A stretch of DNA of 20,000 bases. Source: an uncultured virus (IMG/VR IMGVR_UViG_3300023371_000084). Its lineage: Duplodnaviria > Heunggongvirae > Uroviricota > Caudoviricetes. The notes beneath the pieces are model-generated. The model had not been told where the DNA came from, did no database searches, and saw only the letters and a program-made list of their open reading frames with translations. The translations under genes and the position numbers were made by a program. The DNA lies in IMG/VR virus record IMGVR_UViG_3300023371_000084, one strand, 5' to 3'. Each line of letters begins with the position of its first letter. Position 1 is the first letter of the stretch. This document shows positions 2,594 through 20,000 of this stretch, one piece after another.

Positions 2594-2604
2594 AAAGGAG
2601 GGCT

Positions 2605-5208: not shown

Positions 5209-5229
5209 TCCATTATGGAGGTTGCCAAG

Positions 5230-5578: not shown

Positions 5579-5612
5579 ATATACAGATTTTTGACGGAAG
5601 GTGGTGAGAAGA

Positions 5613-6797
5613 TTGAAAACATTTGAGCTATCTAAAAGAAATACAAAAAATGGACGAAGAAAATTCAAAATTGTCCTTTGTGAAGTATTTCATGAAGACA
5701 CGATTGACGAAGAGAATCAGGTTGGAACCAAGTACAACCGAAACGGCATTTCGTGGATTGAACCGTATGTTCGGGCGCATTTGGATACGATTCCCGGCAT
5801 GTTCCTGCGAGCGGAATTTTTGGACGAGGATCGTACTGAGCTAAACGGACATGGCGAGACAGGCTTTGAAGATGGTATGCCGGTTTTTGAAAACGCTGTT
5901 GATATCGGTACATTTACTAAAGGGTACATCGAAGATGTTGAAACGGAAGACGGCGTAAAGATGTATTGCATCGGCGAAGGTGAGATTGACGCAGCGTGTT
6001 ACAACAAGTTCGTCAAGAAGCTGGACAAAGATATTTCAAGCGGATCTCCACCTTACGGAAGCGTTGAAATTTTAAAGACCGACGATAACGATGCAATTGT
6101 TTACAAATATGGATATGTGCCTGAAGGCCGTATCCCGGTTGAGTTCCAATTCTCCGGTTACGCATTGCTTGGCGTTCAGCCAGCAGATGATGCGGCATAT
6201 ATCGTCGAGCTGAATAATGAGAACAAGGAGGATGCCACTACTATGACTGAGGCTGAGATTAAAGAGCTGGTTGCTCAGACCGTGAATGAAGTGTCTGCGC
6301 ATACAAGCGAAATGAATAAGTGCAAGGAAGAGTGTGAAGCCAAGATCAGCGAAGCGAATGCTACCGTTGAAGAGGCTACTGCAAATGTTGCTAAGCTTGA
6401 AGCTGCACTTGATGAGTGCAAGAAGGAGCTTGGCGAAAAGTATGAGGAGATTGATAAGCTCTACAAGGAGCTTGATGAGCTCCGCGAAATGCTTGCGAAA
6501 GCAAGGGCTAAAGAGCGCGTTGGCGAGCTGAATGAGGCTATTAAGGAATTCTCTGAGGAAGAGAAGCAGTATGCTCAGGCCGAGATTGATGCGTTCAATA
6601 GCGACCCGGTGAATTCCGAGATTAATTCTGTTGTGAATAGGATCTGGGAAGGTATCGGCAAGAAGTCTAAGGCTGATGCAGAGAAGCAGGCAGCTATCGT
6701 TGCCGAGCAGAATGCGGCTTCCGCTGCTGAGATTGAAGATATTTTCAGTGAAGTGAGCGCACCCGTTGCGAACACGGAAGATGAGAACATTTTCTAA
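5613..6797 (+). CDS. Prohead protease / scaffold fusion protein
   Basis: N-terminal globular domain with a GHGETG motif and GSVEI, followed by a long acidic coiled-coil C-terminus. Located between portal and capsid genes. Start is TTG 5613 (AAGGTGGTGA upstream) or GTG 5601. Confidence 0.75.
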   Translation: MKTFELSKRNTKNGRRKFKIVLCEVFHEDTIDEENQVGTKYNRNGISWIEPYVRAHLDTIPGMFLRAEFLDEDRTELNGHGETGFEDGMPVFENAVDIGTFTKGYIEDVETEDGVKMYCIGEGEIDAACYNKFVKKLDKDISSGSPPYGSVEILKTDDNDAIVYKYGYVPEGRIPVEFQFSGYALLGVQPADDAAYIVELNNENKEDATTMTEAEIKELVAQTVNEVSAHTSEMNKCKEECEAKISEANATVEEATANVAKLEAALDECKKELGEKYEEIDKLYKELDELREMLAKARAKERVGELNEAIKEFSEEEKQYAQAEIDAFNSDPVNSEINSVVNRIWEGIGKKSKADAEKQAAIVAEQNAASAAEIEDIFSEVSAPVANTEDENIF

Positions 6798-6822
6798 ATG
6801 AACGAAAGGAAGGACAAACAAT

Positions 6823-7251
6823 ATGATTAAAGTTGAAACTCTTGGCATGATCGATGTTGCCAAGATTAATCCCGTTCTGAAGGCGGAAAAGGCCGTGAAG
6901 AACTATTCATTTCTGACTGATAATGAAATCGTTTATCTGATTTCTAATACTGTTGTCGGCGACAATGCTTACAACAAGGATGTGGTTTTTGCTGCTGGCG
7001 AATACCTGAATGGTTATGAGGTTGCCATGTGGAAGAACCAGAAGCTCGTTATTGATGAAGAGCACATTGCCTATGCTGAGGGCAAGAGCTATGCGGATCT
7101 TGAGGCTGGCGTTTCCATGCTGACCATCAATGAGGATGGCACTCTGGCTGTTGCCGATGCTGCGCCTGCGAGTGGCGTGTACTTTGTCGTGACCGATAAG
7201 GTTATGCTGACTGGCAAGGCTGTTAAAGCCCGCGTCATGATTGCTGGCTAA
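6823..7251 (+). CDS. Probable capsid decoration / head structural protein
   Basis: 142 aa, beta-rich, immediately before the major capsid gene. Strong RBS and the same biased codon usage as the capsid gene. Confidence 0.6.
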   Translation: MIKVETLGMIDVAKINPVLKAEKAVKNYSFLTDNEIVYLISNTVVGDNAYNKDVVFAAGEYLNGYEVAMWKNQKLVIDEEHIAYAEGKSYADLEAGVSMLTINEDGTLAVADAAPASGVYFVVTDKVMLTGKAVKARVMIAG

Positions 7252-7281
7252 TTGAATACATAGGAAGGATGGCATACAATT

Positions 7282-8382
7282 ATGAATACTTTTGAACTAA
7301 ACAATGTCCGCAAGGATGCCGAGGCGTTCAACGGCAAGTTCTCCAAGCAGTCTCCCGTTGTTGAGATTTTCTCTGCGATGGTGAATGGCGAGAATCTTGA
7401 CCGCTTTGGCAAGGCTGCGGATAAGGCTGTTGCCTATATTAAGGAGCTTGGCTCCCGTTCCGAGAATGGTGACTTCTCTGCTGTTGCGGAGCTGAACACC
7501 CTGCGTCGTTTTGTGATTGAGGCTCCGGTCATGGAAGAGCTGAAGCTGCTTGGCATTTTCGGTTCTTACAAGAATGTTGGTTATGATGAGACCATCGAGC
7601 GTGAGATTTACACCCATGTTGGCGAGCGCTCCCGTGAGCAGGCTGCGAGCGGCGATGTCGTGTTCCCGGCCATTCACAAGGAAATCTATCAGGTTCCGAC
7701 CTTCACGGTTTCCGGCGGCTATGCTGTGGATTACCGTCGTGTCGCGCTGGGCGATATGTCCAAGGAGAACGAGGGCGTTGCTCAGGTGAAGACTGACATT
7801 ATGAACCGTGCAAAGCTGGCGATTATCAACCGCGTGTACAATGCGATCAAGAACGCTTCTGGCGTGAAGTATATGTATGAGGGTGCTGGCCTGACTAAGA
7901 CTGGCGTTGACGACGTGCTGGGCAAGGTTCGCCGCAATGGACGTCCGACCGTTATCGGTGATTATGCGCTGATTTCTCAGTTCACTCCTTGGGCTGGCTA
8001 TGTTGGCAACATCAACAACAATGTTATCACTGGCATTTCCGAGAAGGTTATGAACGAGCTGGCGCAGAACGGCACCCTGTCTATGTACAATGGCGCTGTG
8101 CTGTCTGAGATGCCGAACCCGTACAACTTCTACGAGATGAACGAAGCTGGCGACAACTTCAAGACCCTGCTTCCGGCTGGCCTTGGCTTTGTCGTGCCGA
8201 CTGGCGTGCAGTCTCCGATTGCGACCTATTCTCGCGGTGGTCTGACTTCCTGCACTGGCACCGATGTCAAGAGCGGCAAGATCATGACTCGCTTCGACGT
8301 TGAGGTTGGTTGTGACGTTGCGAAGGGTCACGAGCACAAGATTGGTATGATTTACGATACCAACGTTGGCGGCCTGAAGTAA
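7282..8382 (+). CDS. Major capsid protein
   Basis: 366 aa after the scaffold and decoration genes, with strongly biased codon usage (CTG, AAG, GGC, CGT) and a downstream hairpin. Confidence 0.88.
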   Translation: MNTFELNNVRKDAEAFNGKFSKQSPVVEIFSAMVNGENLDRFGKAADKAVAYIKELGSRSENGDFSAVAELNTLRRFVIEAPVMEELKLLGIFGSYKNVGYDETIEREIYTHVGERSREQAASGDVVFPAIHKEIYQVPTFTVSGGYAVDYRRVALGDMSKENEGVAQVKTDIMNRAKLAIINRVYNAIKNASGVKYMYEGAGLTKTGVDDVLGKVRRNGRPTVIGDYALISQFTPWAGYVGNINNNVITGISEKVMNELAQNGTLSMYNGAVLSEMPNPYNFYEMNEAGDNFKTLLPAGLGFVVPTGVQSPIATYSRGGLTSCTGTDVKSGKIMTRFDVEVGCDVAKGHEHKIGMIYDTNVGGLK

Positions 8383-8391
8383 AAAATATAC

Positions 8392-8420
8392 GCGGGGTAT
8401 ATTTCGGTATACCCCGCTTT
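8392..8420 (+). terminator. Hairpin / terminator after the major capsid gene
   Basis: GCGGGGTATA (8392-8401) / TATACCCCGC (8408-8417), followed by TTT. Confidence 0.7.
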
Positions 8421-8438
8421 CCCTATAAGGTGATAGTT

Positions 8439-8627
8439 ATGGAAATAGAAAAACCTTTCTACTGCTATTCCTTGAGGCTATTTCACTATTTGTCTGCGTT
8501 TGGAGAGAAATGCCATTCGTCCAAGATTAACGGCAATAGCGGAAAACGTTATTGGGTTTTTTCAAAATCGAAGAGGCTGGATGACATTATTGCATCCTAT
8601 AATGCAGAGAAATATCGTTTTAGTTGA
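8439..8627 (+). CDS. Small phage protein, DUF5659-like
   Basis: 62 aa with pattern FYCYSLRL...GKRYWVF..S..LDDII..Y and RBS AAGGTGA. Family assignment is from memory of the pattern, not a search. Confidence 0.55.
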   Translation: MEIEKPFYCYSLRLFHYLSAFGEKCHSSKINGNSGKRYWVFSKSKRLDDIIASYNAEKYRFS

Positions 8628-8660
8628 TATCAATACATTAGTTGAAATGAGGAATCAATT

Positions 8661-9149
8661 ATGGAAGAGATTACCAAGCAAGAAGAGTTGAACCTTGATA
8701 CAAAGGTTACGATTCGAAATATCGCCGGATGGACGGTTGGCTTTGCCCGTATCGTTGAAAATCATGGCGATGTGAGCATTGTTGCAGACGGCAGCGTGAG
8801 GCTGTCACGAAATGAGATTATTGCTCAAGTTCAGAATGGCAACAAGCTATTTTGCGGAATTGATGGAAATGGCAGTCATGCCACAATTTTCATTGATGAT
8901 GCGCAAACCCGTGTTTATCTCGATTTTGACAGCGAAGACGGAAAGCGCAAGCAGAACATCTTTACTGATGTAAAGGTGAAGACGCTGTTTGATATGAAGA
9001 AGCAGGCTGACTTTGAAAAGAAATTTGTCGAAGAGATCACGACAAGGGCTGAGAAGTATGCTGTTATGCAGGCGATCAAGCGGCTCAATCTCAACGATTT
9101 CAGCAAAATCCGATTTGCGGAGAAGCACACGGGATACAGAATGGATTAA
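8661..9149 (+). CDS. Hypothetical phage protein of the head-tail region
   Basis: 162-aa ORF with RBS GAGG, co-oriented in the operon. Confidence 0.7.
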   Translation: MEEITKQEELNLDTKVTIRNIAGWTVGFARIVENHGDVSIVADGSVRLSRNEIIAQVQNGNKLFCGIDGNGSHATIFIDDAQTRVYLDFDSEDGKRKQNIFTDVKVKTLFDMKKQADFEKKFVEEITTRAEKYAVMQAIKRLNLNDFSKIRFAEKHTGYRMD

Positions 9150-9161
9150 GGGGTGTAGCCG

Positions 9162-9554
9162 ATGGTGAACACTACTGCAATGGATGTTTTCAGAAGCTTT
9201 GAAGCATCTTTCAGAGATAAGAGCGTTGTGCCGGAAGAGCTAATGCTTGAATGGCTGCATAAAGCAATCGGAAGATACTCTATTGAGCTTGAGCCATTGG
9301 CTTTTGACGAGGACATCCTGTGTTTTGATTGCAAGCTTGATCGGTATGTAATTGACACGTTAGCTGCATTTATGAAGCAATCCTATCAGGAACGCGAAGT
9401 ATCAAAGGTAAACAAGCGTGTATCTATTGTGAGTAAGGATATCAGTATTGATGGCAATAACGGATCAAAGACTGCGGCAAAAAATGAGCTTGATTACGAT
9501 TGCAGCAAGTCCGAGCAGATGATTGCTAATCAGATGCCTACTGCATATGTATAA
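9162..9554 (+). CDS. Putative head-tail adaptor protein
   Basis: 130 aa, helical, at the adaptor position after the capsid genes. Function inferred from synteny. Confidence 0.55.
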   Translation: MVNTTAMDVFRSFEASFRDKSVVPEELMLEWLHKAIGRYSIELEPLAFDEDILCFDCKLDRYVIDTLAAFMKQSYQEREVSKVNKRVSIVSKDISIDGNNGSKTAAKNELDYDCSKSEQMIANQMPTAYV

Positions 9555-9568
9555 GGCGGTGCATCTTA

Positions 9569-10630
9569 ATGGCAATAGCTTGGTATTTGCTAGACGGAAA
9601 TGAAATGACTGGCGGATTTGACTCCGGTGAACTGCGTGAATTGGCGAGCAATGGATTTATGAGTGTGCTGAATTCGGATGCAGCCACAGATGTTGAACTT
9701 TGCAATTATGACCTAAGCGTTTGTACGCCGATCAAAGCGATTATTCAAAACAACACCGCGAATACAAAGTCCAATACGATGATAAGACAAGTGCTTACTC
9801 CTATTGGTACATGCAAGGCGGGCATGTATATCAAATACAAGAATCGCTACTGGTTGATTGTTGGTCTGGTTGATGACAATACGATGTATGAAAAGTCTGT
9901 CGTTGTACTCTGCAATTATTATGCAGCATGGCTGAATGACAACGGAGAGATCGTTCGTCGATGGGTTAGCGCAGCCTCTGCTTCTCAATATAACAATGGT
10001 GAAACAAGCTCTGAATATTATCGAATAAGGACAGATCAACTTATGGTGCTTACACCAGATGACAAAGAATGCTTGATGCTTCACTCAGGAATCCGTTTGA
10101 TCATTGATAAGCGATGCAAAATCTACGAGCAAATGTTTTCTGAGGACACTATTGTTGATACGACAAACCCCGTCATTGTATATCAAATCACACGTGTTGA
10201 TTCCGTATTGTTTGATTATCAGGATAGTGGGCATTCTGAGTTTATGGCATATCAGGACGAGCAGCATGAAAATGATGGGTATTATGTTGTTGATGGAGAA
10301 GGATATTGGCTATGCGATATTCCGCGTCAGCAGGGCAATTCATCACAGATGGCAGAGATCGAATGTGAAAGCGATATCCTATATCCACAGATTGATCCAT
10401 GTATTTTCACTGCAAGGTTCTATGATATCTTTGGAGACGATACCGATGCAGAACCGATTTGGGAAATTGAATCTGATGTAAAGGATAAACTTACCATCGA
10501 TTATGTTGGCAACTCAGTAATTGTTTCAACAGACGATATGTCATGCGCTAATCACACGATTAAGATCACTCTTCATGCAGATTCTTTTACTTCGGTAACA
10601 AAAGAGATTCAAATCAAAGCTTTCTTTTAA
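9569..10630 (+). CDS. Putative head-closure / neck protein with a C-terminal Ig-like extension
   Basis: 353 aa. N-terminal beta-rich part (GMYIKYKNRYWLIV); C-terminal segment (IWEIES...VIVST...IKITLHA...EIQIK) looks Ig-like. Supported by synteny. Confidence 0.5.
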   Translation: MAIAWYLLDGNEMTGGFDSGELRELASNGFMSVLNSDAATDVELCNYDLSVCTPIKAIIQNNTANTKSNTMIRQVLTPIGTCKAGMYIKYKNRYWLIVGLVDDNTMYEKSVVVLCNYYAAWLNDNGEIVRRWVSAASASQYNNGETSSEYYRIRTDQLMVLTPDDKECLMLHSGIRLIIDKRCKIYEQMFSEDTIVDTTNPVIVYQITRVDSVLFDYQDSGHSEFMAYQDEQHENDGYYVVDGEGYWLCDIPRQQGNSSQMAEIECESDILYPQIDPCIFTARFYDIFGDDTDAEPIWEIESDVKDKLTIDYVGNSVIVSTDDMSCANHTIKITLHADSFTSVTKEIQIKAFF

Positions 10631-10642
10631 GGAGCGCAAAAC

Positions 10643-11131
10643 ATGGCAAGAAAAAAGACAACCGCAGAACGCGGAAAGTTTAAGCAAGAGATCAGCAGTG
10701 CTCTGTACAAGAATCCTGATATTCTGGATCTGCTACTTGGAGATACGAGCATGATGAGTTCGTCAAAAGTTCGAACGTTATTCAAGGAGCATGTGAAATC
10801 GCATTTATTCGTTGATGATACAATTACCGATATGACTACTTACATCTTTTACGATATTGCACTTCCGCGGATGTACTCAAATATCAAGGATTGCAAGGTA
10901 ATTATGTATCTTGTTTGTCATCGAGATATTCTTGAGGGATACGGCAAAGAGGGATACTACGGAGATAGAATCGATATTTTGTCTCAGATGGTTGAAGACT
11001 CATTAATCAACGATAAAAGTGTTTCAAATAAATTTGGCATTGGCGAGCTTACACTAGACAGCATTGAGCCGTATAATGCAACAAGGTTCTACGGATGCTG
11101 CATGGTGTTTTCCGTGCCTAATTTCAGATAA
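10643..11131 (+). CDS. Putative tail terminator / neck protein
   Basis: 162 aa with RBS AAGGAG, upstream of the tail tube. Overlaps the next gene via TAATG. Confidence 0.5.
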   Translation: MARKKTTAERGKFKQEISSALYKNPDILDLLLGDTSMMSSSKVRTLFKEHVKSHLFVDDTITDMTTYIFYDIALPRMYSNIKDCKVIMYLVCHRDILEGYGKEGYYGDRIDILSQMVEDSLINDKSVSNKFGIGELTLDSIEPYNATRFYGCCMVFSVPNFR

Positions 11132-11928
11132 TGATTTTAGATTACGGAACACAGTTAAGCCCAGATCCGATCACGCTGTCTATCGGGACGCTAAAAAAGC
11201 CAAGACTTAAAGATATATCACGTATTTCTTTCTCAACATTTAATACTTATGAGGTATTTTTAAAGTGTTCTCCGAAGGAATACTATACGAAAATCTTAAA
11301 AAGTAATGGCGGAATAGAAAAATGGAATGCCATTGCCGATAGTGATAAGGATATATTGACAATGTATACCTTACTTAAAGATGATGTGCAACTTCAAAAT
11401 ATCTATACGCAATTATTCAATTTCTTCTTTGAGGAACGAGTGGTCTTCAAGGAAGGTTTTTTTATTTTGCTCTATGGCGACATTGAGCAAAATAATGAAA
11501 TTGCACCAGAAAATATTCGCGGTGTGATTTCAGAGGATACATTTCCTCAGATTATCGATATCATTCAGCAAATTTGCTGTATTCACAGCAAGGCGGACGA
11601 AGATGCTGCCGATCAGAATTTTAAGAATGACATCGCGCGAAAGTTGTTTGAAAAAATGCAAAAAGCGCTCAAGAAGCAAGAAGAAGAGCGAAAAGTTAAA
11701 GCAGACAAAAATTTGTCTCTTTCCAATATCATCTCTTCTGTTTCCGCGCTTCATCCTTCTATTAATTTGATAAACATATGGGATCTTACGATCTTTCAAT
11801 TATATGACACTTTTAGAAGGATGCAGGGCAACTTGATTTTTGATATGAATTCCACAAGCGTTTCTGTTTGGGGAGACGAGAAAAACAAGTTTGATCAAAC
11901 ACTTTGGCACAAGAACTATTATGACTAA
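11131..11928 (+). CDS. Hypothetical tail-region protein, possibly a tail assembly chaperone
   Basis: 265 aa, translationally coupled to the previous gene. The C-terminal IWDLTIFQLYD resembles chaperone-type motifs. Confidence 0.5.
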   Translation: MILDYGTQLSPDPITLSIGTLKKPRLKDISRISFSTFNTYEVFLKCSPKEYYTKILKSNGGIEKWNAIADSDKDILTMYTLLKDDVQLQNIYTQLFNFFFEERVVFKEGFFILLYGDIEQNNEIAPENIRGVISEDTFPQIIDIIQQICCIHSKADEDAADQNFKNDIARKLFEKMQKALKKQEEERKVKADKNLSLSNIISSVSALHPSINLINIWDLTIFQLYDTFRRMQGNLIFDMNSTSVSVWGDEKNKFDQTLWHKNYYD

Positions 11929-11958
11929 AACAATTTTCTGAATTGGAGGAATACAAAT

Positions 11959-12717
11959 ATGCCTGAACTGAATAGAGCGAATCGACAGGTTTGTGATGTC
12001 GAAATTCGTATTTTGAAGACCATGGCACCTTTCCTGAACTTTGATACTGCCAATGCGACGACCGCCGGTCTGTCCAGTGATAGCGTCTATGCAATGGCTA
12101 AGGGTTCACGTCGTATTGCTTTTGCAAATCCGCTTGAGGGCACGATGACCTTGGAGGCACAGGTTTACCCGTTCAAGTTCTTTGCCCTGCTTGCCGATGG
12201 CACGATTAAGAACGACGCTGCGTACGCAGCTAAGGAAACCATTGCCTGCAAAGAGGCTGGTGTGCTGCCGATGGTTGTGAACAATGGCGAGATCGTCGCT
12301 GGTTCTGTTTTTGTCTATGCGAAGGGCGAGTTTGGCGATGCCGCTATTGAGGGTACTTTCGCTGATGGCAAGTTTACTGCTACCACTGCGGACAATATTA
12401 AGGTTGGTTCTGAGTATGAAGTTGGCTTTATTGTGAATCGCAATAAGGGTGTGCGCAGGATCTCCTTTACGAATGCTGATCTGCCGCAGGATTACTTTAT
12501 TACCATGAAGACGCTGGACAAGGATGAGCAGGGTCTGCTGACTCCGTTCCTGATGACTGCTTACAAGGCCACTATTCAGCGTAGCTTTGAGCTGTCTTTC
12601 AGCTCCGAGGGCGATCCGGCGACTGTTACACTGACCTTTGACCTGCTTGAGGATGCGAATAAGAACATTCTTGACATGGTTGAGATCGAGGAAGAGCTCA
12701 TTGTCAATCCGGCGTAA
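11959..12717 (+). CDS. Major tail (tube) protein
   Basis: 252 aa with RBS GGAGG and capsid-like biased codon usage. C-terminal FELSFSSEGDPATVTLTFDLL is typical of siphoviral tube proteins. Confidence 0.8.
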   Translation: MPELNRANRQVCDVEIRILKTMAPFLNFDTANATTAGLSSDSVYAMAKGSRRIAFANPLEGTMTLEAQVYPFKFFALLADGTIKNDAAYAAKETIACKEAGVLPMVVNNGEIVAGSVFVYAKGEFGDAAIEGTFADGKFTATTADNIKVGSEYEVGFIVNRNKGVRRISFTNADLPQDYFITMKTLDKDEQGLLTPFLMTAYKATIQRSFELSFSSEGDPATVTLTFDLLEDANKNILDMVEIEEELIVNPA

Positions 12718-12737
12718 TGCAGTTTGACACGATATAT

Positions 12738-12773
12738 GCGGGGATAGGCAAGTGAAAACTTACTATTCCCCGC
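12738..12773 (+). other. GC-rich stem-loop after the tail tube gene (terminator or mRNA-stabilising hairpin)
   Basis: GCGGGGA/TCCCCGC outer stem and AAGT-GAAA-ACTT inner stem. No clear U tract. Confidence 0.55.
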
Positions 12774-12800
12774 CCTATTAATTAAATATGGTGAAGCGAT

Positions 12801-13049
12801 ATGATTAAACAATGTAACGTTATTTTAAATAATGAGCTTGTGACGGTAGTTCGCTTCGGAGAAACCAATATTCAGCTTCCCGCCATTGGCAATGATGCAA
12901 AAAGCATCTGGGTGTGCCATGAGAACGGGAAGTATTTTGTTGTAGACGAAAACAAGGTGCTTACTTGCACCGAAGAGACTGCCGCAAAGCCTAGAAAACG
13001 GGCTTCGAAGAAAACAACCGAAAAGATTGATGAAACTGAAATTGAATGA
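12801..13049 (+). CDS. Hypothetical protein with a basic low-complexity C-terminus
   Basis: 82-aa ORF with RBS GGTGA. Confidence 0.65.
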   Translation: MIKQCNVILNNELVTVVRFGETNIQLPAIGNDAKSIWVCHENGKYFVVDENKVLTCTEETAAKPRKRASKKTTEKIDETEIE

Positions 13050-13081
13050 TCGTGACATTGATGAGTTGTATTGTATTTTTT

Positions 13082-13141
13082 TAGGGGAGATACTACCCAA
13101 CATCATCATCGGTGTCAAGGCGTTATCTCCCCTATCTTTTT
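13082..13141 (+). terminator. Long stem-loop followed by a T tract
   Basis: TAGGGGAGATA (13082-13092) / TATCTCCCCTA (13124-13134), then TCTTTTT. Confidence 0.6.
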
Positions 13142-13168
13142 GCGTTTTACATACAGGAGAAGACAGAA

Positions 13169-13396
13169 ATGAAAGCGATTCAGTTTGGATCTCTTGAAGA
13201 AGCAATCGATTGTTATGGACGCGAAAACCTGATTGCAATTGATTGCATCAAGCAGATCATCTTCTACACTACGCATGGTTGTCAGCCAAAGTTTGTCTGG
13301 GAGAAAGAGAATGATCCCGGAAGATTGACATGCTGGTTTTTGAAGAATGAAACAAATTATGTATATAAAAAGTGGCTTGCAAATAGGCCATCATAA
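13169..13396 (+). CDS. Small phage protein, DUF5659-like
   Basis: 75 aa from ATG 13169 (RBS AGGAG), with pattern QIIFY..HG.QP...WFLKNET..VYKKW. Confidence 0.55.
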   Translation: MKAIQFGSLEEAIDCYGRENLIAIDCIKQIIFYTTHGCQPKFVWEKENDPGRLTCWFLKNETNYVYKKWLANRPS

Positions 13397-13399
13397 CAC

Positions 13400-13951
13400 A
13401 TGAAAAATGTAGGAAAAGAATTTGAAGATGCCATTAAACGATCTGTTCCGGATCACATTTTATTATATCGTATTCCAGATGCCGCACAATCATTTGGAGG
13501 AGGCAATCTGAGATTTAGCAGAAAAAACCCATTTGATTTCATTATGTGGGATTCAAAAAGTCATATTTTATGCGCATTAGAAATGAAAACGGTTTCTGGC
13601 AAATCTGTTTCGTTTGAGCGAAACGAAAACGACCAAGGAGATATTCATCTTCACCAGATTCAGGGATTGCAGGAATGGAACAGGTATAACGGCATTGCCT
13701 GTGGATTCATTATTGAATTCAGGGGCATTGAAACGACAGTATTTGTTGATATACGCGGATTTGAGCGAGTTTCGAACGAGCTTTCAAAGAAGAGCTTTAC
13801 AATAAATGATCTTGATTCTCTTCATATTCGATATATTAAGATTCCACAAAAGAAAATTCGGACTCGATATAAATACGATATATCCAGCTTCGCTGAACAG
13901 ATTAGCAAGCATGGGTTTTACGATAAAGAGAAGGTTGAGGAAAAGTTATGA
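13400..13951 (+). CDS. recU: RecU-like Holliday junction resolvase (PD-(D/E)XK nuclease)
   Basis: GKEFE, PFDF, LEMKT and HLHQIQGL match RecU-family motifs. Confidence 0.8.
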   Translation: MKNVGKEFEDAIKRSVPDHILLYRIPDAAQSFGGGNLRFSRKNPFDFIMWDSKSHILCALEMKTVSGKSVSFERNENDQGDIHLHQIQGLQEWNRYNGIACGFIIEFRGIETTVFVDIRGFERVSNELSKKSFTINDLDSLHIRYIKIPQKKIRTRYKYDISSFAEQISKHGFYDKEKVEEKL

Positions 13952-14502
13952 GTATGACAATGAACATTGGAACAAAACTGAATATGCTTGATTACTTGAG
14001 CATTGTCAATGAAATTGCGAATGAGTTTTTTAATGAAGACGGCGATTACCAGCCTCATATCGGACTGATCAACGCAATGTGTGTGTTTTACAACAATTGC
14101 GTAAAGTCGAGCAAATTTGATGAAAAATTCGGTCATGAAATTGTTGACCCGACTGAAATCAGCGAAGTGTTTGAGGACGAAGAGTTTATTCAGGCATTTA
14201 ATGCATCCATCACCGTAACGATGGTTTGTTTTGATTTTGCAAACGCATTTCGTGATGCTATGGATATTGTAAATACCAAGAAGAATTCTGTGAATCAGAT
14301 TTACAACAAGATCAAGAAGCTGGCAAACGATGCAACTACTGTGATGGCGAGCATGGTAACGAAAGAAAATCTGGACAGAATTGACGCAATTACAGATAAG
14401 ATCAAGAACGGAACGCTTGATGTGGACGCATTTATTGAGTCTTACGGCTCCTCTGAGATGTTCAAAAGGACACTTGAAAGCGCAAAGAAAGCCGAGGCGT
14501 AA
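13948..14502 (+). CDS. Hypothetical protein (tail region)
   Basis: 184 aa, ATGA overlap with recU, RBS GAGG. Confidence 0.7.
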   Translation: MSMTMNIGTKLNMLDYLSIVNEIANEFFNEDGDYQPHIGLINAMCVFYNNCVKSSKFDEKFGHEIVDPTEISEVFEDEEFIQAFNASITVTMVCFDFANAFRDAMDIVNTKKNSVNQIYNKIKKLANDATTVMASMVTKENLDRIDAITDKIKNGTLDVDAFIESYGSSEMFKRTLESAKKAEA

Positions 14503-14505
14503 TTC

Positions 14506-14925
14506 ATGGTTGCCACAAATATGAAGCAACTAGACGATATGCTGAAAAAGCATGTTAAAAAGGCGCTTACCGTTACGTCAAGCAAGATCGAAGCAGACAT
14601 GTACGAAGAAACTGGCGGATTTTACACTAAAGGAGAGCCAAAGATGTATGAAAGAACTGGCGCTCTTGGTGATACGCCTAGAACAACTGCAATTATAACC
14701 AATGGCAGTGTGTTTACGTTTAATGCGTATCTTGATCAATCGCATCAGTATACAACTGGAAAATCGCCGTTGATGTCGGATGTTCTTGCGGTTGCGAATG
14801 ATCATAGTTTGTCTGCAACATATGGTCTTATGCCTCCGCTTGGTCGTCAGCATTTCTGGGATCGGGCAGAGAAAAAGATAGAGAGAACACTAAATAAGAC
14901 AATGAGAAGCTTCTTCCGAAAGTAA
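14506..14925 (+). CDS. Putative tail completion protein (HK97 gp10-like)
   Basis: 139 aa, basic. YERTGAL motif and C-terminal GRQHFWDRA resemble gp10-like neck proteins. Confidence 0.5.
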   Translation: MVATNMKQLDDMLKKHVKKALTVTSSKIEADMYEETGGFYTKGEPKMYERTGALGDTPRTTAIITNGSVFTFNAYLDQSHQYTTGKSPLMSDVLAVANDHSLSATYGLMPPLGRQHFWDRAEKKIERTLNKTMRSFFRK

Positions 14926-14946
14926 TTGCATGAGGAGGCGGTTTCT

Positions 14947-15999
14947 GTGGGCAATCAAAAAACAGGAAGAACAACTGTATACAATAACATTACATCAGAA
15001 GAAAAACTGAAACAGGTAAACCCTGAGAATATCGAGCTAGAAAATGACTTCCTCGAATATCTGGCTTCTGTAGATCGCTCAAAGGGAACGATTAAACAGT
15101 ATAAAGCGAACCTTCATGTATTCTGGTGTTGGAACCTTGAATTCAATAAAAATAAATTCTTTGTTGATCTAACTAAGCGAGAAATTGCAAAATTTCAGAA
15201 TCATGCAATCAACGTCTGGATGTGGTCTCCAAAGAGGATTCGAACTGTAAAGGCAACCATTTCATCCCTTAGCAATTATGTCGAAAACATACTTGACGAT
15301 GAATATGAGGACTACAGGCCGATTGTTCGAAAAATTGAGTCTCCTGCCGATGTTGCTGTTCGGCAGAAGACAGTGTTTCAGGAAGAAGACCTCCAGCCAC
15401 TTCTGGATAGTCTTATTGCAAATGAAGAATACATGAAAGCATGTATGTTGTCGCTTGCAATGAATAGCGGACGTAGAAAGGCAGAGCTTCCAAGGTTTAA
15501 GGTTCATTATTTTGATAACGAAAACTTGATCTGTGAAGGAGCGCTTTATAAAACACCTGAGAAGGTGACTACAAAAGGACGCGGAAGCAGAGGTAAGTTA
15601 CTTGACATATATACGCTTGCAAAGCCGTTCAAGCCGTATTTAGATTTATGGCTTGCACAGCGAAAGGAGCTCAAGGTCAAGAGCGAGTGGCTATTCCCCC
15701 GCTATTTCGATGGAAAATGGCTGGATGAGCCAATGTCAACAACGACTCTTGATTCTTGGACAAAAAGCTTTGGTAAATTCTTTGGCAAACCATTTTACTG
15801 GCACAGCCTGAGACATTACCTTACAACGAAACTACATGAATTCGGCATTCCAGACAATATTATTCAAGACATGATCGGCTGGGAATCTGCTGATATGCTG
15901 AAAATTTATATTGATACGGAAGCTGACAAACAGTTTGAAAAATACTTCGGCGCGGAAGGAATCAAGAAAGGACGAAAGTCTGCGCTTGAAGAGTTATAA
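14947..15999 (+). CDS. Tyrosine recombinase (integrase / XerCD family)
   Basis: Catalytic set SGRRKAEL (R), TKGRG (K), HSLRH (HxxR), IGW (W in place of H) and KIY (Y). GTG 14947 follows GAGGAGG. Confidence 0.9.
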   Translation: MGNQKTGRTTVYNNITSEEKLKQVNPENIELENDFLEYLASVDRSKGTIKQYKANLHVFWCWNLEFNKNKFFVDLTKREIAKFQNHAINVWMWSPKRIRTVKATISSLSNYVENILDDEYEDYRPIVRKIESPADVAVRQKTVFQEEDLQPLLDSLIANEEYMKACMLSLAMNSGRRKAELPRFKVHYFDNENLICEGALYKTPEKVTTKGRGSRGKLLDIYTLAKPFKPYLDLWLAQRKELKVKSEWLFPRYFDGKWLDEPMSTTTLDSWTKSFGKFFGKPFYWHSLRHYLTTKLHEFGIPDNIIQDMIGWESADMLKIYIDTEADKQFEKYFGAEGIKKGRKSALEEL

Positions 16000-16008
16000 A
16001 ACAAGTCT

Positions 16009-16034
16009 TCACCATTTGAAATGGTGATTTTTTT
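16009..16034 (+). terminator. Intrinsic terminator-like hairpin immediately before the TMP ribosome-binding site
   Basis: TCACCATT (16009-16016) / AATGGTGA (16020-16027), followed by seven T. Confidence 0.65.
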
Positions 16035-16046
16035 ATGGGAGGAAAC

Positions 16047-17984
16047 ATGTCTGAATTTACAGCAAAAATACAAGCGATTTTAGACACTAAGAAAATCCCA
16101 TCGCAAATTGCCAACATTGAAAAATCAAAAATTACACTGAGCAGGTTTACCCTCGATACAAAGAAGTTGCCGTCTCAAATTCAGGCATCCCTTGATCGTC
16201 ATAATTTCATGATCAGGCTGGATGGCATTAAAACTGATAGTCTTACTACTCAGATTAAAACGGCGGCGAATCGATCGGGTAAATCTTTTTCTCAGCAGTT
16301 AGTTGATAGGATCAATGCACAGCTATCAAATGGTGGAATTGAAGCGTCTATCGCAAGGGTAACTGCGCAATATGAAAAGCTTGGGTCAACGGGGCATGCC
16401 AAGCTCAAAACTATTGGTGCAGATCTTGAAACGTTAAACAGACTTCATAGGGATCTTGCTAAGAATCAAAATGCGCCCAAGGCGCTGATTAAAACATATG
16501 ACTCATACATTGATACACTTACACAAGTAAAAAACAATCTTGTGACCGTATCATCTCAAAGCAAAGTGACGATTAGTTCTCTCCAATCAGGAAAACTCAG
16601 CAATTCAATGAGTGACTGGATGGGAAAAAATACGCGGGCAACAAAGGAATTTGGTTCTGCGATTGATGATCTTCAAAACAGATTACGTTCACTATCTTCG
16701 TCTGGTAATCTAACTCAGGTTGATTTTGACAACATTAAAAACGAATTTGAGAGCATCGTACAGAGAGCAAATCAGGCTGGTCTAGCAGGGGAAACATTTG
16801 GCTCACGTATGAGTAGGACATTTAGCAACATGTTCCGATACTTTGGAGCTGCAGAAGTCCTGCACCGTATTGAAGACGTTCTCAAATCCATGGCAGAAAA
16901 TGTTGTTGCCGTTGATACGGCGATGACTGGACTATATCGTGTTACTGAACTTACGGATGAAGAATATCAGAAGATGTACGGTAATATGGTGAAGTCTGCA
17001 AAGCAGTACGGAACAGAACTTACCGATATTATCAATTCAACTGCTGATTGGGCAAAGCTTGGTTTTGACCCAAATGAAGCGCAAGAGCTTGCAAATATCA
17101 CATCCATGTATCAGCATGTTACTGATTTGAACACAGAAACCGCTGTAAATAATCTAGTGACAGCTTATAAAGGATTTGAAGATCAGCTTCTTGAGCTTAC
17201 TGGCGGAGATGTGTCTGCTGCCGTTGAATACGTTGCTGATATCTTTGATAAGCTTGGCAATGAGTTTGCCGTAAGCGCAAGCGATGTTGGCGAAGCTTTG
17301 ACTCGATCTGCTTCCGCGCTACAAGTGGCTGGCAATAGCATTCAGGAAACTGCTGCTATGGCAACGGGTATTACTGAGGTTACGCAGAATGCTGCTAAAG
17401 CTGGTAATGCACTGAGAACGCTATCCATGCGACTGCGTGGCACAACTGCTGCAGAGCTTGAAGCAATTGGAGAAGATGCAGAGGGATTAATTGAAGTTAC
17501 ATCATCACTGCAAAGTGCAATCAATGATTTGACGGGTGTGAATCTTGTTGAATCAAATGGTGATTTGAGATCCACTTATGATGTAATGCGAGACCTTGCA
17601 AATGTATGGGATACGCTTGGAACAAACACGCAATCCAGAGTGCTTGAGATCATTGCTGGCAAGAACAGAGCCAGTGATGTTGCTGCGCTTCTTAGCAATT
17701 GGGAGCAGGTTGAAAAAGCTATGCTTGCTTCTACGGATGCTTGGGGAACTGCGGCTGCAGAACAAGAAAAGTATGTTGAATCTATTCAGGGACATCTTAA
17801 TCAGCTCAAAACTGCGTGGCAGGCGCTATCAAATTCGTTGATCAAATCCGATTTCCTGAAAGGACTAATTGATACTGGATCTGCTGCGCTTAACACGCTT
17901 GATTGGATAATCAATAGAATCGGTACATTGCCGACGCTGATTGGAGCGGCTTTTGCCGGTCTTTCAATTGGCAAAAACGTGGGT
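16047..17984 (+). CDS. Tail tape measure protein, exon 1 (646 codons; TP901-family core domain)
   Basis: ATG 16047 after GGAGG. Ala/Thr-rich helical TMP core (VDTAMTGL, WAKLGF, LGNEFAVS, GNALRTLSMRL, IAGKNRAS). Ends ...KNVG at the predicted 5' splice site. The unspliced frame continues 31 aa to TAA at 18080. Confidence 0.9.
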
Positions 17985-18389
17985 GAACTAATGAATCAGT
18001 TCCAACACCGGATTATACTACGGATTGAATATGCCCACGAAGCTTTTACTAACAGTAATGTGAACGAGATTGCATGCTAAACTCGAAGTGCAATCAAGAG
18101 GGCTCCATGAAAACAGGATAAACTGATGTAAGTAATGGTTCTTGCATCGACAGACTGGGACGCATAATGCGCAAAGCTGTATATTATAGCGCATTATTGC
18201 TATCAGCAACCATTGCCTGAATACGAGATCAGGTAGGCTCAGAGGACATAAACCTGCGCGGCGGAAGTCGTGAATGTATGTTGCAAACTGTACTCGGCCA
18301 CAGCAAATGCCGGGGTAAAAACCAAACCAGTGCGCTAACTGGAGTATAGAAAATAGCGGGCTCTTCTACCCTTCCATATGCTTGAATGG

Positions 18390-18421
18390 AAAAAGAAAAT
18401 GGCAGAACAAGATTCTGCCAT
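18390..18421 (-). terminator. Intrinsic terminator of the intron cargo transcript
   Basis: Minus strand reads ATGGCAGAA-tcttg-TTCTGCCAT then TTTCTTTTT: a perfect 9-bp stem plus U tract, about 113 nt downstream of the cargo stop codon. Confidence 0.8.
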
Positions 18422-18534
18422 GAACATCGAAGCCGGTGTCGTTCCGAAATGCGGTACGCAGGTGGAGTTCTTTGTGGGTTGTGCGAAAACCACTAATCGG
18501 AGTAGGCAAAAGCCGAACGAAAACGCTCAAACGT

Positions 18535-18990
18535 TTACCATTTGTATCCACAGTTATTGCATTCAAATTGCGATGTTGCTGTTTTGCTAAAAAGCCCAAA
18601 TGCATAACCGTGGATTGCACGCTTCATGCCAGATATTTTCTTTATATTACTAGAATTACAGGTGGGACATTTGGGTACATTCTTATTTTGCGATTTTTGC
18701 TTTTGACGGAATTCGTTATTGAATTGATCAAATGCGTTATCACTTGCTTCTTTTGTTCTTGCGAATTGACACATCTGAGTATCGAAAATAGGATTGTGCT
18801 TGATTTCTTCGTCGTATAATACACTTTCCCATTTCTGGCTGTCTTTATACAACTGCATTGCTTTTCCCTTGTAGTATTCAGTATTTCGTTTGGATTCATG
18901 GTATGGAAGACCAGATTTGCAATACCTACAATGATCCATTTTAAAATATAAAGTTGTGCCACAAACGGGGCAATAATAGAAATACGACAT
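18535..18990 (-). CDS. Intron-borne antisense double zinc-ribbon protein of unknown function (151 aa)
   Basis: CPVC..CRYC at the N-terminus. CPTC..(GYAFGLFS hydrophobic loop)..CNNCGYKW at the C-terminus. GGAG 9 nt before ATG 18990. Has its own promoter and terminator. Confidence 0.85.
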   Translation of the reverse strand: MSYFYYCPVCGTTLYFKMDHCRYCKSGLPYHESKRNTEYYKGKAMQLYKDSQKWESVLYDEEIKHNPIFDTQMCQFARTKEASDNAFDQFNNEFRQKQKSQNKNVPKCPTCNSSNIKKISGMKRAIHGYAFGLFSKTATSQFECNNCGYKW

Positions 18991-19020
18991 TGCAATCAAC
19001 TCCAGATTATTTCTGACTAC

Positions 19021-19049
19021 ATTATATTCTTGTATTCTTTTCTCGTCAA
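19021..19049 (-). promoter_or_regulatory. Near-consensus sigmaA/sigma70 promoter driving the cargo gene
   Basis: Minus strand TTGACG (19049-19044), 17-nt spacer, TATAAT (19026-19021). Confidence 0.85.
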
Positions 19050-19101
19050 TACTTTATCTGCAATATTTTTCAAAGCACAAGCACTTTGATGAACAGTTTT
19101 G

Positions 19102-20000
19102 ATATTCAAAGCAATAGAAGATGAGGCGACAAAGAGCGGTTTAAGAATCAAGAGCATATTTGGAGATGTGGCAAGCAATGTAAAAATGTTGTTTTCGAAT
19201 ATGCAACTCTCCGTTCTTTCTCAGGACAACAAGAGAGCGCAAACTTTTGACATCTCTGCTCTTGTTCGTTATAGGACTGCGTTGCTCAATAATGTTGATG
19301 CAGAACAGGCTTATAACGATTGCATGAAGAATACTTCCGCATGGGCTCAACAGATTGCTCGTGAATTTAGAATCGATGAGATGTCAATGATCGATCTTGC
19401 CAAGGCAACAAGGTCGCATTACATTGAGCTGCAAGCAAGTGAAAAATCATGGAAAACGATTAAATCGCTAATTGGAGAGTATAGCTCTGGATGCAAAGAG
19501 ACTAATCTTACGCAACAAGAGTTTATTGGCGCTATTGCAAAATCCAATCAGGGACTTGCTGGATATCTCAATAGCTTAAACGGAGCAAAGGGATCTCTCG
19601 TAGGTTATATTGGCTACCTTGCAAAAACAGAAGCAATGACGCTTGGCGTGCGTACTGCTACTGTATTGGCAAATGCCGCTGTTTCTGCATTTGCTTCGTT
19701 TGCTATTTCTTGGGTTGTTTCCAAGATAACAGAATGGATTAACGCAGAAAAAGAAGCACGCGAAGCTTTACTGAATACGGGTAAAGCCGCCAAAGAAGAA
19801 GCTGACCGCATCCGTGATCTATACAGCGCATATGCTGACGCCAAAGGAGCATACGACGGAACTGATTCTTCAAAACAAACGCTTAAATCGACAAGTGAAG
19901 ACCTATTAATTGCACTTGGCCTTGAACGTTCTGAGATCGAAAAGCTGACCGAAGACTACGACGGCCTATCCAAGAAGATCGACGAAATAACGACGGATAC
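19102..20000 (+). CDS. Tail tape measure protein, exon 2 (partial, runs off the window; absent from the ORF track)
   Basis: Hand translation gives 299 stop-free codons (IFKAIEDEATKSG...LANAAVSAFASFAISWVVSKITEW...DEITTD) with TMP-like helical composition. An in-frame TGA sits at 19090-19092, just upstream of the 3' splice site, and no RBS is evident. Confidence 0.85.
   Translation, partial: MFKAIEDEATKSGLRIKSIFGDVASNVKMLFSNMQLSVLSQDNKRAQTFDISALVRYRTALLNNVDAEQAYNDCMKNTSAWAQQIAREFRIDEMSMIDLAKATRSHYIELQASEKSWKTIKSLIGEYSSGCKETNLTQQEFIGAIAKSNQGLAGYLNSLNGAKGSLVGYIGYLAKTEAMTLGVRTATVLANAAVSAFASFAISWVVSKITEWINAEKEAREALLNTGKAAKEEADRIRDLYSAYADAKGAYDGTDSSKQTLKSTSEDLLIALGLERSEIEKLTEDYDGLSKKIDEITTD

What the first reader, a model, noticed from the sequence alone, without database searches (positions are those of the whole stretch)
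17978..19109. Tape measure gene split by a group I-like intron with base-pair-resolved splice sites
Seen in sequence: (1) The exon end CGTGGGT (17978-17984) pairs with GCCCACG (18033-18039), placing a U.G wobble at T17984. (2) The adjacent guide bases TTGAATAT (18025-18032) are the exact complement of ATATTCAA (19102-19109), which follows G19101. (3) AAACTGT (18285-18291) pairs with ACAGTTT (19093-19099) across about 800 nt. (4) Joining 17984 to 19102 falls on a codon boundary and gives ...GLSIGKNVG-IFKAIEDE..., open to the window end. (5) Core helices are visible: P5 ATAATGCGC/GCGCATTAT (18164-18172/18189-18197), P6a TGCCTGA/TCAGGTA (18214-18235), P8 CGCGGC-GGAA-GTCGTG (18257-18272), plus Q-like TATCAGCAACC and R-like CTCAGAGGACATA. 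Established knowledge: P1 U.G, P10, P9.0 and the omega-G define group I splice sites. Inference: the full TMP is made only from spliced RNA, and gene callers would mis-annotate it as two genes.
Basis: partly seen in the sequence, partly recalled or inferred. Interest (0 to 1): 0.92.

Follow-up and report, generated by a model that had tools for sequence, protein, structure and literature searches.

The report
Self-splicing-type intron in phage tail gene
A gut phage's tail tape measure gene is interrupted at a codon boundary by a 1.1-kb element that looks like a divergent group I self-splicing intron, a known kind of interruption that here carries two unusual passengers: a backwards-facing zinc-ribbon gene and a 'drum' RNA of unknown function.

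Summary
Every string sits at the stated coordinates, and joining 17984 to 19102 keeps the frame.

In 7 long homologous tape measure proteins, exon-1 residue 650 and exon-2 residue 2 align to adjacent residues.

The 15-nt guide (18025-18039) pairs with both exon flanks. It covaries with the exons in four of five other introns at the same site; the fifth has identical flanks and guide.

The 5' ~400 nt is a conserved structured RNA:
- Window type: 82 pairs, all paired in both sequences, 11 compensatory.
- Sister type: 73 pairs, 27 compensatory, including a P3/P7 pseudoknot and P/Q-like elements.

Rfam RF00028 does not match, and no RNA data exist, so splicing is inferred (about 0.8).

- A drum RNA (RF02958, 74 bits) at 18422-18531.
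- An antisense zinc-ribbon gene with its own promoter and terminator, conserved next to the 3' splice site in all six introns.
- The literature: group I introns in prophage tape measure genes were described in 2008 (PMC2504315).

Verdict: a real feature, and a new variant of a known kind.

The parts
16035..17984 (+). Tape measure gene, exon 1 (650 codons)
   Evidence: PHROG phrog_4211 tape measure, E 2e-76, match ends at residue 652. Pfam PhageMin_Tail. Homologs align up to residue 650.
17985..19101 (+). Intervening sequence (1117 nt), group I-type intron
   Evidence: Absent from 7 exactly contiguous homologs and from loci L053/L054. Occupied at the same site in L020, L021, L022, L050 and L051.
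17985..18080 (+). Read-through tail of the exon-1 frame into the intron (31 codons, then a stop)
   Evidence: No homology to tape measure proteins beyond residue 652.
17978..17984 (+). P1, exon strand, ending in U17984 (U.G pair at the 5' splice site)
   Evidence: The equivalent helix covaries among sister introns (columns 5/55: AU, GC, UA).
18025..18039 (+). Internal guide: 18025-18032 pairs with exon 2 (P10), 18033-18039 pairs with exon 1 (P1)
   Evidence: 15 contiguous pairs; 0 of 2000 shuffles reach this. Four distinct exon/guide combinations occur in six introns.
17985..18002 (+). Hairpin directly after the 5' splice site (GAACU/AGUUC)
   Evidence: helix 2. The equivalent hairpin in the sister type has 3 compensatory pairs (helix 2).
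18068..18095 (+). P2.1-like hairpin
   Evidence: 8 pairs, 2 compensatory and 3 one-sided changes, none broken (helix 5).
18114..18117 (+). Tentative P3 5' strand (CAGG), pairing with 18253-18256 (CCUG)
   Evidence: Invariant in both sequences (helix 6), so unsupported by covariation. The analogous P3 in the sister type has 3 of 4 pairs compensatory (helix 6).
18125..18148 (+). Extra 8-bp hairpin between P3 and P4 (atypical for group I)
   Evidence: 3 compensatory pairs and 1 one-sided change (helix 7). The variant 18129 T>C in four public runs turns U.G into C-G.
18155..18206 (+). P4 (CUGG 18155-18158 / UCAG 18203-18206, tentative) enclosing P5 (18164-18172 / 18189-18197)
   Evidence: P4 is invariant; P5 has 1 compensatory and 1 one-sided change (helices 8 and 9). 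The layout ACUG-GGAC-[hairpin]-UAU-CAGCAA parallels the P/Q elements of Rfam-positive introns in related phages (read).
18214..18235 (+). P6 hairpin
   Evidence: 7 pairs, 3 compensatory (helix 10).
18245..18282 (+). P7 (GACAUA 18245-18250 / UAUGUU 18277-18282) enclosing the P3 3' strand (18253-18256) and P8 (18257-18272)
   Evidence: P7 is invariant and its first pair is G.U. P8 has 1 compensatory pair (helices 11 and 12). The variant 18258 G>A turns G.U into A-U.
18285..18291 (+). P9.0-like strand, pairing with 19093-19099 just before the terminal G
   Evidence: An equivalent pairing is present in 6 of 6 introns, with G-C to A-U exchange between the window and L020 (read).
18294..18342 (+). 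P9-region hairpins (18294-18313 and 18327-18342)
   Evidence: helices 13 and 14. The variant 18313 G>A keeps the pair.
18399..18421 (-). Hairpin followed by a T-run on the minus strand: terminator of the antisense gene. It also sits where canonical drum loci have a hairpin just upstream of the drum RNA.
   Evidence: 10-pair stem, then TTTCTTTTTC. Compared with 11 drum loci.
18422..18531 (+). drum RNA (Rfam RF02958), on the sense strand of the intron
   Evidence: 74.1 bits against a gathering score of 43, E 1.5e-12, full-length model 1-112.
18535..18990 (-). Antisense gene for a 151-aa protein with two Cys4 zinc ribbons around a helical core (ATG 18990, GGAG upstream)
   Evidence: 28 homolog clusters. 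A full-length homolog lies antisense next to the 3' splice site in L020, L021, L022, L050 and L051. AlphaFold2 pLDDT 86.9.
19021..19049 (-). Sigma-70-type promoter for the antisense gene (TTGACG-17-TATAAT)
   Evidence: 11 of 12 consensus matches. TTGACA-17-TATAAT and TTGAAA-17-TATAAT occupy the same place in L020 and L022 (read).
19101..19101 (+). Terminal intron G (omega-G position)
   Evidence: G in 6 of 6 introns at this site.
19102..20000 (+). Tape measure gene, exon 2 (runs off the contig end)
   Evidence: 497 homologs at E<=0.001. Residue 2 aligns directly after exon-1 residue 650 in 7 proteins. Window base 20000 is the end of the record.

Best explanation
Bases 17985-19101 are a group I-type self-splicing intron in the tape measure gene of a phage or prophage of gut Clostridia.

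Inferred mechanism. In the pre-mRNA the guide at 18025-18039 pairs with the last seven exon-1 bases, putting a U.G wobble at U17984. It then pairs with the first eight exon-2 bases. A ribozyme core folded from about the first 400 nt cleaves after U17984. The 3' end is brought in by the 18285-18291 / 19093-19099 pairing and the terminal G19101. The exons are ligated to read ...KNVG-IFKAIEDE..., so a full-length tape measure protein comes only from spliced RNA.

Cargo. The part between the core and the 3' splice site is a cargo bay. It holds a drum RNA on the sense strand, which would be released as part of the excised intron. It also holds an independently transcribed antisense gene for a zinc-ribbon protein. 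That gene accompanies two different ribozyme backbones at this same site, so it is probably the element's mobility or maintenance factor.

Shown: the exact boundaries, the guide-exon covariation, the conserved RNA structure, and the lack of an independent start for exon 2.

Inferred: catalysis, the splicing chemistry, and any role of the cargo.
For: 1. Boundaries. 44 of the 150 listed relatives of exon 2 also match exon 1. In 7 of them residue 650 and residue 2 map to adjacent residues (P0027, P0133, P0022, P0100, P0132, P0053, P0019), and P0006 agrees within one residue. L053 is contiguous at the DNA level, 7668/7669.

2. Guide. There are 15 contiguous pairs, reached by 0 of 2000 shuffles. 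All six introns at the site end exon 1 in U paired to a guide G, and all end in G. Guide and exons change together:
- CGUGGGU|AUAUUCAA with UUGAAUAU-GCCCACG
- AUCGGU|AUAUUUA with UAAAUAU-GCCGAU
- GUCGGU|(U)UUUUC with GAAAA(U)-GCCGAC
- UUCGGU|GUAUUUA with ..GGAUAU-GCCGAA

3. Structure.
- Window type (window + L021): 82 pairs, 163 of 163 cells paired, 11 compensatory pairs, against 0-1 when partners are slid.
- Sister type (L020, L022, L050, L051): 73 pairs, 97.6% paired, 27 compensatory, against 0-5 when slid and 0 of 500 shuffles. This includes a P3 that crosses P7, and P- and Q-like strings (AAUAUGCGAGGAA / UUCGCAG) like those of Rfam-positive introns in the same phages.
- Variants in four public runs that fall in helices keep the pairs: 18129, 18170, 18258, 18313.

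4. No own start for exon 2.

5. Context. In the sister phage G001 the same gene carries two further interruptions that RF00028 does recognise (66.3 and 49.5 bits). They sit exactly where the alignment to a 2511-aa relative breaks, at 1739|1740 and 1923|1925.

6. Precedent. Group I introns at three sites in tape measure genes of Bacillus cereus-group prophages (PMC2504315, section 8 part 1 read).
Against: RF00028 finds nothing in any of the six introns, even at E<=10, although it finds other introns in two of the same phage records.

In the window's core:
- P3, P4 and P7 never vary between the only two sequences available, so they rest on analogy.
- P4 is only 4 bp.
- An extra hairpin sits between P3 and P4.
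- The first P7 pair is G.U where canonical introns have G-C.

The structures were drawn by me from these same sequences, which favours them in the slid controls. With 2 and 4 related sequences, the shuffle counts are not probabilities.

For two sister introns the guide match alone is weak: 226 and 286 of 2000 shuffles reach it.

No RNA evidence of the ligated junction exists.
Confidence: 0.8

Rival explanations
1. The tape measure protein is naturally made as two polypeptides. The insertion is a non-splicing mobile cassette (antisense gene plus drum RNA), and the second half is translated from the TTG at 19099.
For: 22 of the 32 inspected database relatives start exactly one residue before the junction, as expected if a start codon sits there. 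The window, L020 and L021 do have TTG at that place. Genes split by mobile endonuclease genes are known in phages (recalled, not checked here).
Against: In L022, L050 and L051 there is no in-frame start between the upstream stop and the junction. The first start lies 47, 13 and 88 codons inside the conserved exon 2. The printed window upstream of the TTG shows no GGAGG-like ribosome-binding motif. This reading leaves unexplained the guide's covariation with both exons and a 400-nt RNA structure kept by compensatory changes. The G of the TTG is simply the invariant last intron base.
Confidence: 0.07
2. The element is a decayed group I intron that no longer splices, in a defective prophage with a broken tape measure gene.
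For: No RF00028 hit. A short P4 and a G.U at the first P7 pair. The record is a 29-kb fragment, rated 19% complete.
Against: Both exon frames are open and conserved. All 163 helix cells pair in two sequences that differ at many sites, with 11 compensatory pairs. Variants in four further samples keep the pairs. The same arrangement recurs in six loci with intact flanking frames.
Confidence: 0.07
3. The structured RNA is not a group I ribozyme. Its 15-nt guide, complementary to the uninterrupted target, serves another purpose, such as RNA-guided recognition of intron-less alleles by the zinc-ribbon protein, or splicing by an undescribed ribozyme class.
For: The guide is complementary to the ligated, intron-less sequence. 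The only conserved protein has no known nuclease or maturase fold. RF00028 does not match.
Against: The U.G at the cleavage site, the terminal G, and the P10- and P9.0-type pairings are the specific signature of group I splice-site choice, present in 6 of 6 introns. The sister type fits a complete P1-P9 group I topology with a covarying P3 pseudoknot. Nothing here shows any protein-RNA link.
Confidence: 0.04

Closest known systems
Group I introns TMP-IVS1, IVS2, IVS3a/b in tape measure genes of Bacillus cereus-group prophages (Tourasse and Kolsto 2008, PMC2504315; section 8 part 1 read)
   Same: The same host gene class, in prophages of Firmicutes. Several insertion sites occur per gene. Different ribozyme backbones share one site and have near-identical guides. 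P1/P10 adapt to the site.
   Different: Those introns were assigned to subgroups IA1/IA2 and found with standard methods. The present ones escape RF00028. The cargo here is an antisense zinc-ribbon gene and a drum RNA, rather than a sense-strand or decayed homing endonuclease gene. Hosts are gut Clostridia (record titles).
Rfam-recognised group I introns in the related phage records G001 and G003 (RF00028; 86.9, 66.3, 49.5 bits)
   Same: Two of them interrupt the same tape measure gene further downstream. The order of elements is shared: P4 strand, hairpin, Q-like strand, P6, R-like strand, P8, S-like strand.
   Different: The sequence of the core differs enough that the covariance model scores nothing. 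The window type has an extra hairpin before P4 and no P7.1/P7.2-like insert.
Nuclear rDNA group I introns with antisense homing endonuclease genes (PMC9548176; search listing and abstract only)
   Same: A protein gene is nested in a group I intron on the strand opposite to the ribozyme.
   Different: Those are eukaryotic introns with His-Cys box endonucleases. Here the element is a phage intron, the protein belongs to no known nuclease family, and the gene has its own bacterial promoter and terminator.
drum RNA, Rfam RF02958 (Weinberg et al. 2017, PMC5737381; passages read, supplement unreadable)
   Same: A full-length match to the model at 74 bits, and a hairpin just upstream, as in canonical loci.
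   Different: The 11 canonical loci inspected in viral contigs show a TATAAT-type box upstream and a terminator hairpin downstream. Three of them (L009, L010, L013) show a neighbouring ORF beginning MD(L/I)L..HLAGFQYMKD or similar. The window copy has none of these, lies inside an intron, and scores lower than 15 of the 17 viral-contig copies, which range from 65.5 to 102.1 bits. The authors judged an association with self-splicing ribozymes unlikely.

Membership tests
Group I intron | P1 helix between the end of exon 1 and an internal guide, with a U.G wobble at the 5' splice site | tested here: met
   7 bp with U17984.G18033. U.G in 6 of 6 introns at the site, with compensatory change in the helix.
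Group I intron | The last intron nucleotide is G (omega-G) | tested here: met
   G19101; G in 6 of 6.
Group I intron | P10 between the guide and the start of exon 2 | tested here: met
   8 bp in the window and 5-8 bp in the other five (8 in L021), changing together with exon 2.
Group I intron | Conserved core P3-P8 with the P3/P7 pseudoknot | tested here: inconclusive
   The sister type fits: P3 has 3 of 4 pairs compensatory, while P7 is invariant. In the window type a consistent model can be drawn, but P3, P4 and P7 never vary between the two sequences available, and the core has atypical features.
Group I intron | Guanosine-binding G-C pair in P7 | tested here: inconclusive
   The first P7 pair is G.U in the window and L021. 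The register of the binding site cannot be fixed from two identical sequences.
Group I intron | Match to the Rfam covariance model RF00028 (a detection tool, not a defining property) | tested here: not met
   No hit at E<=10 on 17800-19300 or 17970-18400, nor in G000. No hit on the five sister introns either.
Group I intron | Self-splicing by two transesterifications started by exogenous guanosine | not testable with these tools
   No RNA-holding run was listed. This needs bench work.
drum RNA (RF02958) | Score above the family's gathering threshold over the whole model | tested here: met
   74.1 bits against 43, model positions 1-112.
drum RNA (RF02958) | Stand-alone gene with a 3' Rho-independent terminator (as described in PMC5737381) | tested here: not met
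   No terminator-like site follows it on the plus strand. 11 canonical loci show one.
Known homing endonuclease families (LAGLIDADG, GIY-YIG, HNH, His-Cys box, PD-(D/E)XK), for the antisense protein | Recognisable nuclease domain by profile or fold | tested here: inconclusive
   Pfam, PHROGs, NCBIfam and PADLOC give only sub-threshold zinc-ribbon hits. Foldseek's best E is 1.3, and VIA-align's best Z is 2.9, to zinc ribbons only.

The most novel reading that the evidence does not exclude
The antisense zinc-ribbon protein is a new kind of intron-associated factor: an unrecognised homing nuclease, or a DNA- or RNA-binding helper. It keeps to this tape measure site across two unrelated-looking ribozyme backbones. 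In addition, the drum RNA, a widespread structured RNA of unknown function, can travel and be expressed as part of an excised self-splicing intron. That would tie drum RNAs to the biology of mobile elements in phages.
Probability: 0.2. Interest if true: 0.75.

Novelty: new variant of a known kind. Interest (0 to 1): 0.55.

Why it matters
Tape measure genes of gut Clostridia prophages appear to be heavily interrupted. Of the 48 related genome loci, 11 show alignment breaks at other positions, which I read as insertions at about six other sites. One sister phage gene carries at least three introns.

Standard tools miss this intron family. Automatic annotation therefore splits the gene: 22 of 32 inspected database entries start at the junction. 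Tail-length and host-range inferences from such annotations will be wrong.

The family also offers a divergent natural ribozyme for group I models to be trained on, a conserved antisense passenger gene of unknown function, and the first context I found for a drum RNA inside an intron.

The general phenomenon, group I introns in prophage tape measure genes, has been in print since 2008.

Tried and rejected
Searches that found nothing useful:
- Rfam at gathering and at E<=10 on the window, L020 and ten genome loci: no group I hit on any intron at this site.
- Megablast and blastn of the region against 50,697 phage records: no match.
- Exon-2 protein and alignment against viral contigs: only L002 (weak) and L020.
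- A degenerate pattern for 'TG + IFxxIEDEA' in metagenome contigs: 12 matches, none a tape measure gene. That used the single metagenome scan.
- A core pattern in viral contigs: only the sister record G001.
- nhmmer profiles of both core types against all fetched loci: no further members.

Sequencing runs:
- No RNA holder was listed.
- I laid four DNA runs with partial word shares hoping for an intron-less allele. All four carry the intron.

The zinc-ribbon protein:
- No family scored above cut-off in Pfam, PHROGs, NCBIfam or PADLOC.
- No fold match beyond zinc ribbons.
- The atlas neighbours are unnamed viral proteins.

drum RNA:
- No P0001 homolog lies near the 17 other drum loci.
- No drum above cut-off was found in five sister records or genomes.
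- The supplement of PMC5737381 that describes the drum-associated protein could not be read, so I cannot say whether the zinc-ribbon protein is related to it.

Other:
- I considered and rejected a group II intron: the ends are GAACU.../...UUUG, not GUGYG.../...AY (consensus recalled).
- I considered and rejected an intein: the inserted frame has a stop after 31 codons.
- Pfam on sense ORFs inside insertions at other tape measure sites gave only zf-FCS, DUF2726/DUF5889 and CapR/DUF723. My impression that they are homing endonucleases is untested.
- The earlier-findings look-up returned one unrelated note.

Full report
**Setting**

The window is the reverse strand of bases 1-20000 of a 29-kb viral record, and window base 20000 is the contig end. 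It encodes terminase, portal and virion proteins. ORF 16035-18080 matches tape measure families: phrog_4211 at E 2e-76, and Pfam PhageMin_Tail. That homology stops at residue 652, two residues after the proposed exon end. Relatives of the gene lie in metagenome-assembled genomes labelled Ruminococcus, Lachnospiraceae and other Clostridia, and in some Bacteroidales.

**Observation**

Joining 17984 to 19102 falls on a codon boundary. The guide at 18025-18039 forms 15 uninterrupted pairs with the two exon flanks, and none of 2000 shuffles of the first 210 intron bases reaches that.

**Boundaries**

An exhaustive HMMER search with the exon-2 product found 497 relatives. Of the 150 listed, 44 also match the exon-1 product. 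In seven long proteins, exon-1 residue 650 and exon-2 residue 2 align to adjacent residues, for example 726/727 in P0027 and 807/808 in P0133. The consensus there reads ..SFKN[VI]G|[ILF]FKTIEDEA...

I picked 32 further relatives because their match begins within 15 residues of their N-terminus. Of these, 22 start exactly one residue before the junction, 9 start a few residues upstream, and 1 starts essentially at the junction. This is what gene callers would produce if the same site is interrupted in many genomes.

**The same site elsewhere**

Five other loci carry an insertion at this codon: L020, L021, L022, L050 and L051. L053 and L054 are uninterrupted.

In all six interrupted loci, exon 1 ends in U opposite a guide G, and the insert ends in G. 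Guide and exons change together in four combinations.

**Could exon 2 be translated alone?**

In three loci there is no in-frame start codon between the upstream stop and the junction. The first start lies 13, 47 or 88 codons inside conserved sequence. In the other three, the only start is the TTG whose G is the last intron base, and the printed window upstream of it shows no GGAGG-like ribosome-binding motif.

**RNA structure**

The six inserts have two kinds of 5' region.

The window and L021 share one kind. On a model with P1 to P9 helices including a P3 that crosses P7, all 163 cells of 82 pairs are standard pairs. Eleven pairs changed on both sides, against 0-1 when partners are slid. The compensatory changes lie in the P1 loop hairpin, P2.1, an extra 8-bp hairpin, P5, P6 and P8. 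P1, P3, P4 and P7 are identical in the two sequences and so are untested. Variants seen in four public DNA runs that fall in helices keep the pairs.

The other four inserts share a second kind. It fits a complete group I layout: strings like the classical P and Q elements, a covarying P3 (3 of 4 pairs compensatory), P5 with a GNRA-capped extension, P6, an invariant P7 with a bulged A, and P8. Across this model, 97.6% of cells pair and 27 of 73 pairs are compensatory, reached by 0 of 500 shuffles and against 0-5 on sliding.

I drew both structures from these same sequences, and the sequences are few and related. The controls therefore overstate the case somewhat.

**What speaks against group I**

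Rfam's RF00028 scores nothing on any of the six, even at E<=10. It does find other introns in two of the same phage records, at 86.9 and 66.3 bits. The window's core has a 4-bp P4, an extra hairpin between P3 and P4, and G.U as the first P7 pair. No RNA run was available, and four DNA runs all carry the insert.

**Context that supports introns**

In the sister record G001, the downstream part of the same gene aligns to a 2511-aa relative with breaks at 1739|1740 and 1923|1925. RF00028 hits of 66.3/20.2 and 49.5/28 bits lie in exactly those gaps. That gene therefore has at least three interruptions, two of them canonical.

Among 48 genome loci, 11 show insertions of 0.4-2.1 kb at other positions of exon 1. 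Nine of these carry sense-strand cysteine-rich ORFs.

Group I introns at three sites of prophage tape measure genes, including different introns with near-identical guides at one site, were described in the Bacillus cereus group in 2008 (PMC2504315, section 8 part 1 read).

**Cargo**

Between the core and the 3' splice site the window holds two passengers.

- *A drum RNA*, a full-length match to RF02958 at 74.1 bits, on the sense strand.
  - Seventeen other drum copies in viral contigs score 65.5-102.1 bits. The 11 I inspected show their own TATAAT-type box and terminator, and L009, L010 and L013 show a characteristic neighbouring ORF.
  - The window copy has none of these, and the five sister introns have no drum.
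  - The only papers on drum in the library are its 2017 description and method or database papers. The supplement on its associated protein could not be read.

- *An antisense gene* (18990-18535).
  - It has a TTGACG-17-TATAAT promoter and a hairpin-plus-T-run terminator.
  - It encodes a 151-aa protein with two Cys4 ribbons around a helical core.
  - Full-length homologs (about 40-45% identical) lie in the same place and orientation in all five sister introns, across both ribozyme types.
  - The family has 28 clusters, essentially unannotated, and matches no known domain or fold beyond zinc ribbons.
  - Its constancy suggests a role in the element's spread or upkeep, but nothing here shows what that role is.

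**Verdict**

This is most likely a self-splicing group I-type intron with correctly placed splice sites (about 0.8). Splicing itself remains inferred.

It is not a new kind of thing. It is a divergent, Rfam-invisible variant of a known phenomenon, with an unusual antisense passenger gene and an embedded drum RNA. Those two features are the parts most worth following up.

Noticed in passing
G001 (record of L021), contig bases about 29775-31354 and 28390-29174, minus strand; loci L095, L097, L099, L100: The downstream part of the sister phage's tape measure gene is interrupted twice more. RF00028 hits (66.3/20.2 and 49.5/28 bits) sit in exactly the gaps of the protein alignment, so the gene has at least three introns.
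   Followed up: partly
L058, L060, L067, L071, L078, L083, L084, L086, L089/L090, L092, L093 (exon-1 region of each): Tape measure genes of other gut prophages carry 0.4-2.1 kb insertions at about six other positions (near query residues 409, 451, 459, 475, 507, 530 and 575). Nine have sense-strand cysteine-rich ORFs. Five of these loci (L067, L071, L084, L086, L092) were among the loci Rfam-scanned at gathering, and RF00028 reported none of their insertions.
   Followed up: partly
L094 (G003 contig 48635-48872, plus strand): A compact canonical group I intron (RF00028, 86.9 bits) lies in another gene of the phage that carries the L020 intron. The host gene was not identified.
   Followed up: no
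L021 3016-3582 (+) and 3766-4485 (-), inside the 2726-nt sister intron: The sister copy of the window-type intron carries two extra ORFs (188 aa and 239 aa) with no Pfam match. The 239-aa ORF is on the tape measure strand behind its own TTGACA-type promoter. The cargo region is evidently variable.
   Followed up: partly
window 13400-13951 and 14926-15999 (+): A Holliday-junction-resolvase-like ORF and an integrase-like ORF (phrog_1, E 9e-31) lie directly upstream of the tape measure gene, in the middle of the structural module. This is an unusual position.
   Followed up: no
L009 1613-1951, L010 1614-1829, L013 785-1399 (next to canonical drum RNAs): Canonical drum RNAs in phage contigs are followed by a conserved ORF (MD(L/I)L..AW..YRY.F.YGYK...HLAGFQYMKD), between portal and terminase genes. 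This is presumably the drum-associated protein mentioned in the 2017 paper. It is absent from the window.
   Followed up: partly
window 18125-18148 with 18207-18213: The loop of the extra hairpin (AAUGGUU) is complementary to AACCAUU just after the Q-like strand. That gives 7 bp in the window and 6 in L021 with one wobble, so a pseudoknot is possible. There is no compensatory change to test it.
   Followed up: partly
G001 contig 59346-59458 (-), locus L102: A sub-threshold drum-like match (33.8 bits, E 3.9e-6) lies elsewhere in the sister phage, outside its tape measure intron.
   Followed up: no
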